DNA of 64,000 bases from a virus, in the IMG/VR virus record IMGVR_UViG_3300036852_000353, positions 16,435-80,434 of that record; one strand, written 5' to 3'. The notes under the pieces are model-generated. The model saw only the letters and a list, made by a program, of their open reading frames with translations, did no database searches and was not told where the DNA came from. Of the stretch, positions 5,355-38,883 are shown piece after piece (the first letter of the stretch is position 1; each line of letters starts with the position of its first letter). The position numbers and the translations under genes are program-made.

Positions 5355-6851
5355 CGTCGATCTGGAGCAGCTGCGGGACCAGGTCGAACGGCTGGTGCGG
5401 ACCGGTGACACGAAGCGGCTGAAGCTGGTGCATGCGCAGCTGAAGGCGGCGGTGGACCGCAAGCAGGCGGCTGAGCGTGCGGACCGGTGGGCGCAGGATC
5501 CCTCCGCGTGGGTCTCCGACCGGCTGGGTCAGCTGGTGTGGTCGAAGCAGCGCGAGATCATGGAGTCGGTGCGGGACAACCGCAAGACGGCCGTGAGGAG
5601 TTGTCACTCCTCGGGAAAAGTCATGTGGCTTCGCTCATCGTGGCGTGGTGGCTGGATGCGCACCCGCCGGGCGAAGCCTTTGTAGTCACCACCGCACCCA
5701 CGACGGCGCAGGTCCGTGCCATTCTCTGGCGGTATATCCGCCGGATACAAAGACAGCACAATCTGCCGGGCCGTGTGAATCAAGTCGAGTGGTTGATCGA
5801 CGAAGAACTCGTTGCTTTCGGACGGAAGCCTGCCGATACGGATGAGGCTGCGTTCGTCGGTATCCACGCACCCTATGTATTGGTTGTCATCGACGAAGCA
5901 TGCGGTGTGCCGGAGTCGCTGTGGATAGGTTCCGAGGCCATCACCACCGGTCCGTGGTGCCGTATCCTGGCCATCGGCAACCCCGACAATAGCGCCACTC
6001 ATTTCTACAAGGTGTCCCAGCCGGGTTCGGGCTGGAAATCGATCCGGATCTCCGCTTTCGACACGCCGAACTTCACCGGTGAGAAGGTGCCGGAGAAGGT
6101 GGCGGTCTCCCTCATCTCGCAGGAGTGGGCGGAGGAGAAGAAGCTGGAGTGGGGCGAGGGCAATGCCCTCTACAACTCCAAGGTTCTGGGTGAGTTCACC
6201 CTGGATGCCGCTGACACGGTGGTGCGTGCTTCCGATGTGGCGACCTGCTGTCTCGATACCGAGGCCGTCTACTCACCCGCCGATCTCTCCCCGGTGGAGC
6301 TGGGTGTCGACGTGGGTGGCGGGCTCGATGAGACCGTGGTGCGTGAGCGTCGTGGTGTGCTGGCCGGTCGTGAGTGGCGGATCCGTACGGACCGGCCGGA
6401 GAAGATTGCTCCGCTGGTGCTGAAGGCGATCCGTGAGTCGGGCGCGACCGCGGTGAAGATCGACTCGATTGGCGTCGGCTTCGGTGTGATCGGTGAGCTG
6501 CGCAATGCCGCTTCCCGTGGTGAGCACGCGGCCCGGATCATTGGGGTCAACGTCTCCGAGAACCCGCGGGACAAGAAGAAGTTCGCGAACCTGCGGGCGG
6601 AGATGTGGTGGACCCTCGGCCGGGAACTCTCGGCGCAGGGCGGCTGGGATCTGTCGCGGATGGAGAACGGCGACATCACCTGCGCGCAGCTGCTGCAGCC
6701 GCGGTGGGAGCTGGACACCAAGGGGCGAATCCTCGTCGAGCCCAAGGACAAGATCCGGGCAAGAACGGGCAGATCACCCGATAACGCCGACGCACTGCTG
6801 CTCGCGTACTACAGCGGGGCCAAGCCCCGTATCCGATTCCTCAGCAGCTGA
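5341..6851 (+). CDS. terL: Terminase large subunit, read across a -1 frame change at 5613-5619
   Basis: Frame 0 gives WSKQREIMESVRDNRKTAVRSCHSSGK; the -1 frame continues GKSHVAS...VLVVIDEA (Walker B), GNP, and a RNase H-like nuclease (LGVDVGGG, RSPDNADA). Confidence 0.9.
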
Positions 6852-35833: not shown

Positions 35834-37504
35834 TCAATCGCCCTGGGACACCGCATCCCAGGGCCAGACGCCCGCCACTCCCGCTTCGAGCATCGGGATC
35901 AGCTTGAACGCCTGGTCAGTTAGTCCGCCAAGCGTGAAGCGGGCATCACTGCCGCTCGGCATGGCGGAGGCCGTGTATCCCGCGAAGTTCCACATGTACA
36001 CGGGAACGTTGAGAGGGACGACGGCGTCGATGCGGGTGTGCTCGACGCTGTAGCCGTTCTCGTTGGAGGGCAGGTACCCGGGCTGGGTCTGCTCGTCGGT
36101 GATGATGACGACACGGTCGTGGTTGTTGTAGTGGCGGCGGACAGCGGCGGGGATGTTGGTGCCCCAGTCCTTGCCGAACTGCTCGACCAGGGGCAGCACA
36201 CTGGTGCCCTTCTTGACCGTGATCTCCCGGGACTGGCCGTGAAATTCGACCAGGGTCGGGATCTCGGCACGTACAGCCAGCGCGGACCCGAAAACAGCGG
36301 CCTGGTCGGCGCGGGAGATGTCTTTCATCTTCATGTTCGGGAACTTGTGATCCCAGTCGGGGAACATCGACGGGCTGCGGTCCACGAGGATCAGCGTGCG
36401 CCCGCCGAGGGAGGGCACGTTGGCCAGTGAGTGGTTCAGTGCCTGTTCCAGCGGATAGGCCCAGCGCAGCAACCCGGCGTCCTTCGTCGCGCGGTGGGCG
36501 GCGAGAAAGCGGAAGGGGAACTGCCGCGACCGCGCGATGACGTCGGCGTCGGTCAGCGCGGACACGATCTGCTGGGCGACCTTGTCAGAGACCCCTGCCT
36601 GGTCGAAGTTCCGCAAATTGCGGATCTGCGACATGATGCCCATGGACGGGATCATCGCTTCCCAGGCCGCCTTGTCCAATGGGCCCTGCAGCCATCCGGC
36701 CAACGCCTCCCACGTCATCCCCGCTTTGGCGAGGATCTCCGGACCGTCGGGGCCGGTGACCACCGCACGGCGTTCCTCGACCGGCATCTCCATCAGCCTC
36801 TTGCGTGCCGTGAGTGTCCGGTTCGAGTCGGGCGGTACCGCGGTGTCGGGGTGGTGGCGGCGGTCGAGGGCGTATTGGAAGACGTCGCCCTGCCACGGCT
36901 TGTCGGGGTCCGGCGACGCGTGCACCAGGTTGAGGATGTCGCCGAAGCGGTAGCCCTTGGACGCGGTGTCGTACTTCAGCAGCGCCTTGCCGTTGTAGAG
37001 ACGGCGTACGGCGTCGGCGATGCCGCGCTTGACGGGCTTGGGTACGTTGCGGCCGTACGTGGACGTCCAGTAGGCGAGCAGCTCGCCGGGCTCGTCGGCG
37101 CGCTGCAGCACGGAGTCGATGACCTTGCGCGAGCCGAGCTGGTTGTGCTGGAGGCGTTCGGCGGTGAACTCGGCCGCACCAACGAGGGCGGCAGTGCGCA
37201 TGTTGCCCGGTCCGCGGAGCCACTTGAGCATGTCGGCTGTCCAGACCGGGTCTTCCACGGTGGTCTTGCGGATGAGGCGGGCGAAGCGGCTGTCACGGTC
37301 GATGCCCGACTCGTGGAGATGGTCCTTGCCGTCCAGGAGGGCACCGGACGCCATGAGGAATAGCTCACCCTGTGCGGTACGTGTCCATCCCGGCGCGCCG
37401 AGGGCGGTCGTGGTGTCGGGGGTCTTGGAGACCGTGGCGATGGGACTCGTGGTCGTGGCGACCGGAGGCTTGGTCTTGTGGCTGGTGGTGTTGAAGCGGG
37501 CCAC
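35834..37504 (-). CDS. Ro60/Rsr-like TROVE-domain RNA-binding protein with vWA domain
   Basis: ELFL, LRGPGNMRTAALVGAAE, RADEPGE, KYD, LRNFDQAG, RQFPFRF; vWA LILVDRSPSM and VVIITDEQ. Confidence 0.93.
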   Translation of the reverse strand: MARFNTTSHKTKPPVATTTSPIATVSKTPDTTTALGAPGWTRTAQGELFLMASGALLDGKDHLHESGIDRDSRFARLIRKTTVEDPVWTADMLKWLRGPGNMRTAALVGAAEFTAERLQHNQLGSRKVIDSVLQRADEPGELLAYWTSTYGRNVPKPVKRGIADAVRRLYNGKALLKYDTASKGYRFGDILNLVHASPDPDKPWQGDVFQYALDRRHHPDTAVPPDSNRTLTARKRLMEMPVEERRAVVTGPDGPEILAKAGMTWEALAGWLQGPLDKAAWEAMIPSMGIMSQIRNLRNFDQAGVSDKVAQQIVSALTDADVIARSRQFPFRFLAAHRATKDAGLLRWAYPLEQALNHSLANVPSLGGRTLILVDRSPSMFPDWDHKFPNMKMKDISRADQAAVFGSALAVRAEIPTLVEFHGQSREITVKKGTSVLPLVEQFGKDWGTNIPAAVRRHYNNHDRVVIITDEQTQPGYLPSNENGYSVEHTRIDAVVPLNVPVYMWNFAGYTASAMPSGSDARFTLGGLTDQAFKLIPMLEAGVAGVWPWDAVSQGD

Positions 37505-37551: not shown

Positions 37552-37683
37552 GTCCCCGAGATCAGGTCGGTATCGGAACAAGGCGTCTTGGGCCACTCGA
37601 CCACACCAGCAAGCTGGCGACGGGATTCGAACCCGCGTCTCCCTCTGGAAAGGAGAAGTAGCCGATACCTTCGCACCGGGGAC
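37552..37683 (-). ncRNA. Y RNA, YrlA-like (permuted tRNA-like domain), copy A
   Basis: GTCCCC-GGTGCGAAGG 5' strand pairs with CCTGATCTC-GGGGAC 3' strand; inside, a T-arm (GCGGG TTCGAAT CCCGT) precedes a closed acceptor-like stem and a D-arm. Confidence 0.85.
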
Positions 37684-37687
37684 GTCG

Positions 37688-37765
37688 TGGGAGATGAGGG
37701 ATTCGAACCCTCTCGCGACCGGGGCCTGCCGGTGCTTCAGCCGTGTGTCTGGCCAGGACTCTCCC
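37688..37765 (-). ncRNA. Aberrant tRNA-like RNA (Ser-like acceptor, T-arm and long variable arm; irregular D and anticodon arms)
   Basis: GGGAGA/TCTCCC-A acceptor, GAGGG TTCGAAT CCCTC T-arm. Confidence 0.55.
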
Positions 37766-37780
37766 GTGTTCAGTTATATG

Positions 37781-37816
37781 CTGACGGGCTGCGGGAACCA
37801 CCCCGCAGCCCGTCAG
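37781..37816. other. Perfect 15-bp hairpin inside the RNA array
   Basis: ctgacgggctgcggg-aaccac-cccgcagcccgtcag. Confidence 0.8.
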
Positions 37817-37848
37817 TGTGGCCGGACCCACCCGGATACCAGACCAAG

Positions 37849-37923
37849 TGGAACATGGGGGAATCGAACCCCCGACCTCTCGCTTTTCAGACGAGCGCTC
37901 TCTCCGAGCTGAGCTAATGTTCC
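37849..37923 (-). tRNA. tRNA-Phe (GAA)
   Basis: GGAACAT/ATGTTCC acceptor, CT-GAA-AA loop, canonical D and T arms. Confidence 0.93.
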
Positions 37924-38055
37924 GGGTGACCCCTCCCTGTGACGGAAGGGGCAGCGCGACTCGGGACGATCACTCCGGGGTATTCAAGGAAGTGACTCCA
38001 TCACGCTTCTCCAGCGGCCCGTGAAGGCGTACTGCACTGGAGCCGATTTCGGTTG

Positions 38056-38130
38056 TAGGGCCTGGAGGACTTGAACCTCCGACCACTTGCGTATCAGGCA
38101 AGTGCTCTAACCGGGCTGAGCTAAGACCCC
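38056..38130 (-). tRNA. tRNA-Ile (GAT)
   Basis: CTTGC-CT-GAT-AC-GCAAG; canonical cloverleaf. Confidence 0.93.
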
Positions 38131-38133
38131 TAG

Positions 38134-38279
38134 GTGCCTGAGATCAAGATCGACGACACTGTTCGTACCAATGCTCTACCAACTGAGCTACCGGACAGAG
38201 GGGGGAGCTGCCCGGACAGGACTTGAACCTGTGACCTTTGGTTCCCTGTGAAGTAGGTATCGTCTGTCGCACCAGGCAC
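38134..38279 (-). ncRNA. Y RNA, YrlA-like, copy B
   Basis: GTGCCT-GGTGCGACAG / CTTGATCTC-AGGCAC terminal helix; ACAGG TTCAAGT CCTGT T-arm before TAGCTCAGTTGGTAGAGC D-arm. Confidence 0.88.
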
Positions 38280-38288
38280 ATGATGTGA

Positions 38289-38358
38289 CTGTCTGAGATC
38301 AGATCGGCGTCAGGGGGGACTTTTATCAGAAGTACCCTGTTGCCTGCGCACCAGACAG
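38289..38358 (-). ncRNA. Short Y RNA without a tRNA-like domain, copy C
   Basis: CTGTCT-GGTGCGCAGGC / GCCGATCTGATCTC-AGACAG; TACTTCT loop. Confidence 0.75.
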
Positions 38359-38369
38359 AAGTCATGCGC

Positions 38370-38447
38370 GCGCCTGAGGTCAAGAGTGGGCGTTCCGGCG
38401 TGATTTCACCAGAAGAAGTAGCCGGGGGTGCCGTTCGCACCAGGCGC
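38370..38447 (-). ncRNA. Short Y RNA, copy D
   Basis: GCGCCT-GGTGCGAACGG / CTTGACCTC-AGGCGC; CTACTTCTTCT loop. Confidence 0.75.
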
Positions 38448-38478
38448 ACAATGGTTGGCACTCTGTTGAGTTGTCTAG

Positions 38479-38553
38479 GACAGACGACGGGATTTGAACC
38501 CGCACTGCCCCCTCGCATGGCGGGGGCGTGCTGCCAACTACACCACGTCCGTC
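38479..38553 (-). tRNA. Atypical tRNA with His identity (G-1:C73) and ATG at the centre of the anticodon loop
   Basis: 8-bp acceptor GACGGACG/CGTCTGTC; CCCCC-GCCATGCGA-GGGGG anticodon arm; normal D and T arms. Confidence 0.6.
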
Positions 38554-38557
38554 AGGT

Positions 38558-38697
38558 GTACTGCCCGAGATCAAGTCGACGACGCGTTCGTAAGCGCTCT
38601 GCCAGACTGAGCCACCGGCCGACAGCCGGGCGGGATTTGAACCCGCGACCTCTCCATTAACGGTGGAAGAATTCGTCATCTGCGCACCGGGCAGTAT
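38558..38697 (-). ncRNA. Y RNA, YrlA-like, copy E
   Basis: TACTGCCC-GGTGCGCAG / CTTGATCTC-GGGCAGTA; GCGGG TTCAAAT CCCGC T-arm before TGGCTCAGTCTGGCAGAGC D-arm. Confidence 0.88.
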
Positions 38698-38769: not shown

Positions 38770-38847
38770 TCGAACGGCAGAGGTCCGTGGCGTCGCCGGG
38801 TCGTATCTTGGAAGGAAGGAACCGGCTCCTTCGCACCTGCCGTTCGA
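38770..38847 (-). ncRNA. Short Y RNA, copy F
   Basis: TCGAACGGCA-GGTGCGAAGG / GACCTC-TGCCGTTCGA; TTCCTTCCTTCC loop. Confidence 0.72.
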
Positions 38848-38855
38848 GTGCGTTC

Positions 38856-38883
38856 ACACTATCACCGCCGGTGACTCTGTCAA
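38856..38883 (-). promoter_or_regulatory. Sigma70-type promoter heading the Y RNA/tRNA array
   Basis: TTGACA-N16-TAGTGT with extended TG; predicted start a few nt before copy F. Confidence 0.65.

What the first reader, a model, noticed from the sequence alone, without database searches (positions are those of the whole stretch)
37683..38558. tRNAs abut the Y RNAs within 3-4 nt, possibly acting as processing punctuation
Seen: E ends 4 nt before the His-like tRNA, B ends 3 nt before tRNA-Ile, and the Ser-like RNA ends 4 nt before A. Established: RNase P and 3' processing enzymes recognise the acceptor/T-arm, not the anticodon. Inference: the tRNAs release mature Y RNA ends from one precursor. 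That would explain why two tRNAs here keep good acceptor and T arms but have aberrant anticodon arms.
Basis: inference. Interest (0 to 1): 0.65.

Follow-up and report, generated by a model that had tools for sequence, protein, structure and literature searches.

The report
tRNA punctuation in phage Y-RNA array
A soil phage of Streptomyces makes six Ro60-partner RNAs (Y RNAs) from what looks like one long transcript, and tRNA-shaped genes pressed against three of them, two of which can no longer read codons, probably mark where host tRNA-cutting enzymes release those ends, although most ends need another route and the odd tRNAs appear to have jobs of their own.

Summary
The spacings are real: Y RNA E to the His-like RNA 5 nt (reader: 4), B to tRNA-Ile 3 nt, Ser-like RNA to A 4 nt. 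The array sits behind one promoter, conserved in all 8 orthologous arrays, ahead of a Ro60 gene. Support for punctuation: Y-tRNA junctions are 6 nt or shorter in 15/27 cases against 2/23 for Y-Y junctions; unrelated tRNA bodies fill the same slot; aberrant bodies flank Y RNAs 11/12 times against 8/19 for canonical tRNAs; in three arrays A's stem starts right after C74. Limits: only 19 of 86 Y ends touch a tRNA; the His slot is empty in 3/8 arrays; about 58 of 61 other Y loci have no abutting tRNA. The His-like RNA keeps G-1:C73 and lost its anticodon twice independently. The Ser-like RNA is 92% conserved (Ro60 gene 79%), has an extra covarying hairpin and occurs once without a Y RNA. Punctuation is therefore a likely local mechanism, not the main reason these RNAs exist. 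Precedents: Deinococcus Yrn2/tRNA-Asp/Yrn1 precursor, plant t-elements. The scan noted similar arrays in other phages. No RNA data; cleavage is inferred.

The parts
38856..38883 (-). Promoter of the array: TTGACA, 16 nt, TAGTGT with an extended -10 TG
   Evidence: Only TTGAC-N16-19-TARNNT match on the minus strand of the 111.5-kb genome; -35 and -10 conserved with variable spacer in 8/8 orthologous arrays
38770..38847 (-). Y RNA F (short; first RNA of the precursor)
   Evidence: GGUGCG and GACCUC closing-stem motifs, fold z -2.95
38559..38696 (-). Y RNA E (YrlA type, permuted T/acceptor/D domain)
   Evidence: Rfam YrlA 57.3 bits, E 3.7e-11, below the gathering score of 69
38479..38553 (-). His-identity tRNA-like RNA (G-1:C73, 9-nt anticodon-position loop), 5 nt behind E
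   Evidence: Rfam tRNA 44.9 bits; arms; slot holds canonical His(GUG) in L002 and L084, aberrant His-like in L001 and L060, nothing in L004, L033, L111
38451..38478 (-). 28-nt spacer with the A/C-rich ACAACUCAACAG motif (candidate tRNA-independent cut site)
   Evidence: Kept in L004, where the tRNA is deleted; AACT in 11/43 spacers against 2.4 in shuffles
38367..38450 (-). Y RNA D (short)
   Evidence: Motifs and fold z -3.11; orthologues in 8/8 arrays
38289..38358 (-). Y RNA C (short); 8 nt from D and 9 nt from B, with no tRNA between
38134..38279 (-). Y RNA B (YrlA type)
   Evidence: Rfam YrlA 39.4 bits, E 5.7e-6
38056..38130 (-). tRNA-Ile(GAU), canonical, 3 nt behind B
   Evidence: ARAGORN and Rfam 68.1 bits; the matching slot holds Asn, Gln, Pro or a 152-nt aberrant body in relatives
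37924..38050 (-). Unnamed three-hairpin element X, ending UNACCC directly at G1 of the next tRNA body
   Evidence: Fold z -3.16; homologues in L004, L033, L084 with compensatory changes; followed at 0 nt by Phe, Arg, Arg or Ser-like; no Rfam hit
37849..37923 (-). tRNA-Phe(GAA), canonical; abuts X, not a Y RNA
   Evidence: Rfam 68.7 bits
37778..37846 (-). Element Z with a 15-bp hairpin
   Evidence: Inverted repeat 37781-37795/37802-37816; paired double change at 37790/37807 in one low-depth contig of another sample; partial homologue in L001
37688..37765 (-). Ser-like anticodon-less tRNA-like RNA: acceptor, extra 5' hairpin, GG..AAG stretch, capped 4-6-nt loop arm, T arm, A73, C74; 4 nt before A
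   Evidence: 7 distinct members with compensatory changes in acceptor, hairpin 1 and T stem; not in Rfam; 92% identical W/L001
37552..37683 (-). Y RNA A (T-loop-bearing, last of the array)
   Evidence: Motifs, T loop, fold z -2.64
35834..37504 (-). Ro60/Rsr gene (556 aa)
   Evidence: Pfam TROVE E 5e-15; DNA matches to annotated Ro-like RNA-binding proteins of Streptomyces and Gordonia phages

Best explanation
The array is one transcript from the promoter at 38883-38856 that runs through six Y RNAs, four tRNA bodies and several unnamed RNAs into the Ro60 gene. It is cut by a mixed code. Where a tRNA body touches a neighbour, host tRNA-maturation enzymes free the neighbour's end: RNase P at the His-like and Ile 5' ends leaves E and B with 5- and 3-nt tails, and the tRNA 3' cut after A73 or C74 of the Ser-like RNA leaves A with a 4- or 3-nt leader. 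Every other end comes from the transcription start or from single-stranded A/C-rich spacers (RNase E or J, then trimming to the Ro60-protected stem). Any tRNA body can punctuate, which relaxes the anticodon. The two aberrant RNAs are nonetheless kept as products with their own roles: the His-like RNA as a histidine-chargeable, non-decoding tRNA, the Ser-like RNA as a conserved tRNA mimic. Shown: positions, conservation, slot occupancy, single conserved promoter. Inferred: transcription, every cleavage, the enzymes, charging.
For: Promoter conserved in 8/8 arrays and unique on its strand; no internal terminator found by the scan. Y-to-tRNA gaps 3-12 nt in 13/15 junctions; tRNA-to-A gaps 1-5 nt in 6/7 arrays that have A. 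The slot before A holds the Ser-like RNA (5 arrays) or canonical tRNA-Arg (L084, 3 nt); where nothing abuts (L004) the spacer is 22 nt with ACAACUU. The slot behind the upstream Y block holds Ile, Asn (twice), Gln, Pro or a 152-nt aberrant body. Element X ends at G1 of four different bodies. C74 is encoded in 33/33 host tRNA genes and 29/29 non-type-II bodies in the arrays. S. coelicolor cuts CCA tRNAs between the Cs and has RNase E and tRNase Z (PMC4681348). In L002, L033 and L111 A's stem begins at the base after C74. AACT is absent from all 19 short junctions and present in 5/5 long tRNA-to-Y spacers. The phage has no RNase Z-type, RtcB or CCA-enzyme gene. Own-function signs: G-1:C73 in 5/5 His-slot RNAs, which is the main HisRS determinant while the anticodon is weak (PMC4357726); anticodon loss twice (L060 77% like canonical His, 60-64% like W/L001); Ser-like 92% against 79% for the Ro60 gene and 82-87% for E, D and B.
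Against: No RNA data, so neither the precursor nor any cut is observed. The eight arrays are related, so the counts are not independent. The RRCNU RNase E motif is not enriched in long spacers (3/9 against 2.6 expected), so the enzyme for the second route is a guess. High conservation of the Ser-like RNA could also reflect strict demands of the processing enzymes. Its acceptor is 6 bp plus a mismatch or bulge, and a 7-bp stem is described as a major RNase P determinant (PMC4201824).
Confidence: 0.55

Rival explanations
1. Dedicated punctuation: the aberrant bodies are pure processing signals, like plant mitochondrial t-elements, kept only to release Y RNA ends.
For: 11/12 aberrant bodies in the arrays flank a Y RNA against 8/19 canonical ones (p 0.008, non-independent). 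The anticodon loop is the most variable part (4-9 nt). The Ser-like RNA precedes A at 1-5 nt in 5 arrays.
Against: The His slot is empty in 3/8 arrays while E and D remain. G-1:C73, the D arm and the Ser-like 5' hairpin are kept. Ser-like is behind A in L004 and has no Y RNA in the 7.4-kb L123 contig. The type II body in L060 touches tRNA-Ile, not a Y RNA. 67 of 86 Y ends have no tRNA.
Confidence: 0.15
2. Packing only: the array is compact, and the ends of all Y RNAs are set by RNase E or J nicks in spacers followed by exonuclease trimming to the Ro60-protected stem. tRNA cuts happen but do not matter for the final Y ends.
For: Y-Y gaps are also short (median 9 nt). Streptomyces-type two-Y loci have a 9-11-nt spacer and no tRNA. 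Only 5 of 61 other Y loci have a tRNA within 500 nt. M. smegmatis YrlA and YrlB are processed from one precursor (PMC4201824). Streptomyces has RNase J with 5'-3' activity (PMC10126417).
Against: A 1-5-nt junction leaves almost no single strand for RNase E. A's stem starts at the base after C74 in three arrays. The AACT motif is missing where a tRNA abuts and present where it does not.
Confidence: 0.25
3. Separate transcription units: each Y RNA or block has its own promoter and terminator, so no release is needed.
For: The 15-bp hairpin Z could act as a U-less terminator ahead of the Ser-like RNA.
Against: Spacers of 3-9 nt cannot hold promoters. There is one conserved promoter per array and no second match in the region. 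Z's homologue in L001 runs straight into tRNA-Ile.
Confidence: 0.05

Closest known systems
Deinococcus radiodurans Yrn2/tRNA-Asp/Yrn1 polycistronic precursor, and YrlA/YrlB loci (Chen et al. 2014, PMC4201824; Rfam RF02553)
   Same: Y RNAs upstream of an rsr gene, made as one precursor that includes a tRNA; YrlA-type permuted tRNA domains; extra T-arm RNAs (a, b) near rsr
   Different: Phage-encoded, six Y RNAs and four tRNA bodies; two bodies cannot decode; slots are filled interchangeably across relatives. In the passages read, that paper does not assign release of Y ends to the tRNA.
Plant mitochondrial t-elements (Forner et al. 2007, PMC1920247) and the mitochondrial tRNA punctuation model (PMC8601606 abstract)
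   Same: Canonical tRNAs and degenerate tRNA-like bodies with an intact T arm mark RNase P and RNase Z cuts that define neighbouring RNA ends; released elements can gain C or CC
   Different: Bacterial phage rather than organelle; the neighbours are Y RNAs and other ncRNAs, not mRNAs; the aberrant bodies here are strongly conserved and one keeps His identity; ends are not mapped
Bacterial tRNA-His (G-1:C73)
   Same: G-1:C73, 8-bp acceptor, D and T arms, C74
   Different: No GUG anticodon; 9-nt loop without U33 or a purine 37
Thermus phage phiLo Ro60 with Yrl1 and Yrl2 (PMC12135203)
   Same: Phage Ro60 with upstream Y-like RNAs
   Different: Two RNAs; no interleaved tRNAs or processing model in the passages read
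Phage T4 stable RNAs species 1 and 2 (own knowledge; the literature search found nothing)
   Same: Non-decoding tRNA-like RNAs in a phage tRNA cluster processed by host RNases
   Different: No Ro60 or Y RNA link; different fold; not tested here

Membership tests
Bacterial/phage Ro60-Y RNA locus | Adjacent Ro60 (TROVE) gene | tested here: met
   PF05731 E 5e-15 at 35834-37504
Bacterial/phage Ro60-Y RNA locus | 5'/3' closing stem with the GNCGAA-type motif | tested here: met
   Six elements with GGUGCG[AC] and UGA(U/C)CUC stems
YrlA (RF02553) | Rfam gathering score of 69 bits | tested here: not met
   E 57.3 and B 39.4 bits; significant E-values but below the cut-off
Bacterial/phage Ro60-Y RNA locus | RNAs bound by Ro60 | not testable with these tools
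   Needs immunoprecipitation or gel shift
tRNA punctuation / t-element processing | Single polycistronic precursor | tested here: inconclusive
   One conserved promoter in 8/8 arrays; no transcript data
tRNA punctuation / t-element processing | tRNA-like body with intact acceptor and T arm at the neighbour's boundary | tested here: met
   3-5 nt here; 15/27 junctions 6 nt or shorter
tRNA punctuation / t-element processing | tRNAs flank most mature RNAs of the transcript | tested here: not met
   3/12 Y ends here, 19/86 in 8 arrays
tRNA punctuation / t-element processing | Mapped RNA ends coincide with the body's ends and depend on RNase P or Z | not testable with these tools
   Needs RACE and in vitro cleavage
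Canonical tRNA-His | G-1:C73 | tested here: met
Canonical tRNA-His | 7-nt loop with GUG anticodon | tested here: not met
   9-nt loop GCCAUGCGA
Canonical tRNA-Ser (for 37688-37765) | Cloverleaf with D arm, 7-nt anticodon loop and long variable arm | tested here: not met
   No Rfam or ARAGORN call; 4-6-nt loop; no variable stem; extra 5' hairpin

The most novel reading that the evidence does not exclude
This phage clade has evolved bacterial t-elements: a conserved, Rfam-unknown anticodon-less tRNA-like RNA whose 3' processing cut, after C74, sets the 5' end of the last Y RNA exactly and frees the Y RNA and Ro60 message, while the released RNA and a repeatedly evolved His-chargeable non-decoding tRNA act as further tRNA mimics in the Ro60 system.
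Probability: 0.3. Interest if true: 0.68.

Novelty: new variant of a known kind. Interest (0 to 1): 0.45.

Why it matters
How bacterial Y RNAs are released from their precursors is not worked out in the papers read, which only report polycistronic precursors. These arrays provide natural swap and deletion variants (tRNA present, aberrant, replaced or absent in the same slot) that make the question directly testable in Streptomyces. If the cuts are confirmed, degenerate tRNA bodies serving as processing signals, known from plant mitochondria, would extend to phages. The work also defines a new conserved tRNA mimic (7 members) and shows anticodon loss with retained His identity twice.

Tried and rejected
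Sequencing runs: no RNA holder listed; laying the two DNA runs only confirmed the assembly. Sigma-70 scan missed the promoter because TAGTGT matches only 3 of 6; found by pattern and conservation instead. RRCNU (mycobacterial RNase E, PMC10641625) is not enriched in long spacers, so RNase E is not claimed. Ser-like RNA searched by pattern in viral and metagenome contigs, by covariance model in 213 held sources, in 151 Streptomyces genomes (no match, no positive control) and by blastn in GenBank phages: only 7 distinct members, and 51 of the 53 metagenome pattern hits were not members. A short pattern in two genomes and the promoter pattern in viral contigs added nothing. Pair counting on the His-slot alignment was dropped because MAFFT misregistered the two lineages; arms were parsed by script. 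Arm 2 of the Ser-like RNA is misaligned in A4, so its low pairing is an alignment artefact (it pairs 4-6 bp in each member). ARAGORN calls inside YrlA 5' halves (Asn, Thr, Ser, Glu, Trp at low threshold) were rejected as Y RNA domains. The Rsr tree resolves only W+L001. Two reviews on bacterial Y RNAs were not held; the T4 precedent was not found. An internal -10-like TATAAC before the Ser-like RNA was rejected: it is not conserved and has no -35.

Full report
Setting. The window belongs to a complete 111,555-bp phage. ORF 35834-37504 (-) is a Ro60/Rsr protein (Pfam TROVE, E 5e-15), with DNA matches to Ro-like genes of Streptomyces and Gordonia phages; its closest chromosomal relatives are in Streptomyces. 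Upstream on the minus strand lie, in order: a promoter, Y RNAs F and E, a His-like RNA, Y RNAs D, C and B, tRNA-Ile, element X, tRNA-Phe, element Z, a Ser-like RNA, Y RNA A, and a hairpin at the ribosome-binding site. E and B match Rfam YrlA at E 3.7e-11 and 5.7e-6, below the gathering score.

Observation. Using the ends of the closing stems, E to G-1 of the His-like RNA is 5 nt, B to G1 of tRNA-Ile is 3 nt, and A73 of the Ser-like RNA to A is 4 nt. The His-like RNA has an 8-bp acceptor with G-1:C73, normal D and T arms and a 9-nt anticodon-position loop. The Ser-like RNA has a 6-bp acceptor and a canonical T arm but an extra 5' hairpin and a 6-nt capped arm, and neither ARAGORN nor Rfam detects it. 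tRNA-Ile is canonical.

Comparison set. Protein and pattern searches gave seven further distinct arrays of the same design: L001, L002, L004, L033, L060, L084 and L111. All eight carry the same promoter ahead of F, with conserved -35 and -10 and a variable spacer. In this genome it is the only such match on the minus strand. One precursor is therefore likely, though not observed.

Evidence for punctuation. (1) Y-tRNA junctions are 6 nt or shorter in 15/27 cases and Y-Y junctions in 2/23 (Fisher p 7e-4, non-independent). Other actinophage tRNA arrays are not packed like this (3 of 45 gaps 13 nt or shorter). (2) Slots take any tRNA body. Behind the upstream Y block stand Ile, Asn (twice), Gln, Pro or a 152-nt aberrant body at 3-12 nt. 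Before A stands the Ser-like RNA in five arrays (1-5 nt) or canonical tRNA-Arg (L084, 3 nt). Element X ends with UNACCC directly at G1 of Phe, Arg, Arg or the Ser-like RNA. (3) Aberrant bodies flank a Y RNA 11/12 times, canonical tRNAs 8/19 times (p 0.008, same caveat). (4) C74 is encoded in 33/33 host tRNA genes sampled and in all 29 non-type-II bodies of the arrays. S. coelicolor cuts CCA-encoding tRNAs between the Cs and has RNase E and tRNase Z homologues (PMC4681348). A cut after C74 would give A a leader of 0 nt in L002, L033 and L111, 2 nt in L084, 3 nt here and 4 nt in L001; that extension to CCA-less genes is my inference. (5) An AACT motif, usually ACAACU, is absent from all 19 short tRNA junctions, present in 5/5 long tRNA-to-Y spacers (four of these are one orthologous spacer), and enriched overall (11/43 against 2.4). 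This suggests a second signal where no tRNA abuts. (6) The phage lacks RNase Z-type, RtcB and CCA-enzyme genes, so host enzymes would act.

Evidence against the full claim. Only 3 of 12 Y ends here and 19 of 86 overall touch a tRNA body (F was not scored in L002 and L033). D-C and C-B are joined by 8 and 9 nt without a tRNA. L004 has a clean deletion of the His-slot gene that keeps E's end and the spacer motif; L033 and L111 also lack it. Among 61 other distinct Y loci only 5 have a tRNA within 500 nt and one abuts by script, three with L076 and L107 seen by eye. Streptomyces-type two-Y loci use a 9-11-nt spacer, and M. smegmatis YrlA and YrlB come from one precursor (PMC4201824). tRNAs are thus not required to mature Y RNAs.

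The aberrant RNAs keep more than processing needs. All five His-slot RNAs keep G-1:C73: two are canonical His(GUG) and three are aberrant. L060's is 77% like the canonical ones and 60-64% like W/L001, so the anticodon was lost twice. G-1:C73 is the main HisRS determinant and the anticodon a weak one (PMC4357726), so charging is plausible; simple inheritance of G-1:C73 is not excluded. The Ser-like RNA has seven distinct members with compensatory changes in the acceptor, the 5' hairpin and the T stem (covariation score reached by 1/500 shuffles and above all slid controls; arms). It is 92% identical between the window and L001, against 79% for the first 600 nt of the Ro60 gene and 82-87% for E, D and B. 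It lies behind A in L004 and has no Y motif nearby in L123. A different type II aberrant body in L060 touches tRNA-Ile and no Y RNA.

Mechanism. Best reading (0.55): one precursor, cut by RNase P and the tRNA 3' endonuclease where a tRNA body abuts, and at A/C-rich spacers elsewhere; the aberrant bodies punctuate but are also products in their own right. Rivals: packing with tRNA-independent trimming (0.25), pure processing signals (0.15), separate promoters (0.05). Positions and conservation are shown; transcription, cleavage, enzymes and charging are inferred. The RRCNU RNase E motif was not enriched, so the second enzyme is open.

Known relatives and novelty. A Y RNA-tRNA polycistron is published for D. 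radiodurans (PMC4201824), and degenerate tRNA bodies as RNase P and Z signals for plant mitochondria (PMC1920247). The locus works like t-element punctuation at some ends but fails the feature that tRNAs flank most products. What I did not find described is the use of interchangeable canonical and anticodon-less bodies at Y RNA boundaries in phages, and the Ser-like RNA family. Earlier notes of this scan record Y RNA arrays with tRNA-shaped units and anticodon-less mimics in other phages; these are unchecked and not counted as support. Verdict: observation confirmed, interpretation partly supported, new variant of a known kind, interest 0.45.

Noticed in passing
window:37510-37545 (-), and the same place in L001, L002, L004, L033, L060, L084, L111: A hairpin carrying the Ro60-binding GGUGCG[AC] motif sits just before the ribosome-binding site of the Ro60 gene in 8/8 arrays. 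It may let Ro60 regulate its own translation.
   Followed up: partly
L001:2446-2550, L002:2281-2386, L004:1994-2100, L084:968-1070 (-), L060:5078-5180 (-): A conserved structured element of about 100 nt (GG...GGGG, AAAAUCCACC, GCC...GCG, AGGCG) with 7 compensated pairs of 25, often wedged directly between tRNAs; no Rfam hit. Not seen in the window's array. Possibly pseudoknotted; function unknown.
   Followed up: partly
window:37924-38050 (-); L004:2408-2540, L033:3225-3329, L084:679-780 (-): Element X, a conserved three-hairpin RNA that ends exactly at the next tRNA body; not in Rfam.
   Followed up: partly
L033:3065-3216: A 152-nt tRNA-like RNA with intact acceptor, D and T arms and a long insert in place of the anticodon and variable region, 6 nt behind a Y RNA (Rfam tRNA 38.9 bits).
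   Followed up: no
L084 (-) sense positions 6588-6684 and L060 (-) sense positions 2178-2278: A second family of aberrant, long-armed tRNA-like RNAs (97-101 nt, C73, no C74), behind A in L084 and behind tRNA-Ile in L060.
   Followed up: partly
window:38134-38279 (-): Y RNA B has an 8-bp acceptor-like stem. A 7-bp stem made M. smegmatis YrlA an internal RNase P substrate (PMC4201824), so B may itself be cut.
   Followed up: no
L002:2563-2655, L004:2310-2402, L060 and L084; also L004:2186-2305 and L111:3833-3955: Two more unnamed conserved elements shared between arrays; no Rfam hit.
   Followed up: no
window:35512-35586 (-): tRNA-Leu(CAG) of short-arm length (75 nt) downstream of the Ro60 gene; similar short Leu genes in L002:4919-4992 and L060.
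   Followed up: no
L002:1665-2265: An open reading frame is inserted into the RNA array behind Y RNA B and ends in a Y-like 3' stem motif.
   Followed up: no
window:34427-35299 (-): ORF with a weak TerD match (E 4e-4, below cut-off) downstream of the Ro60 gene.
   Followed up: no
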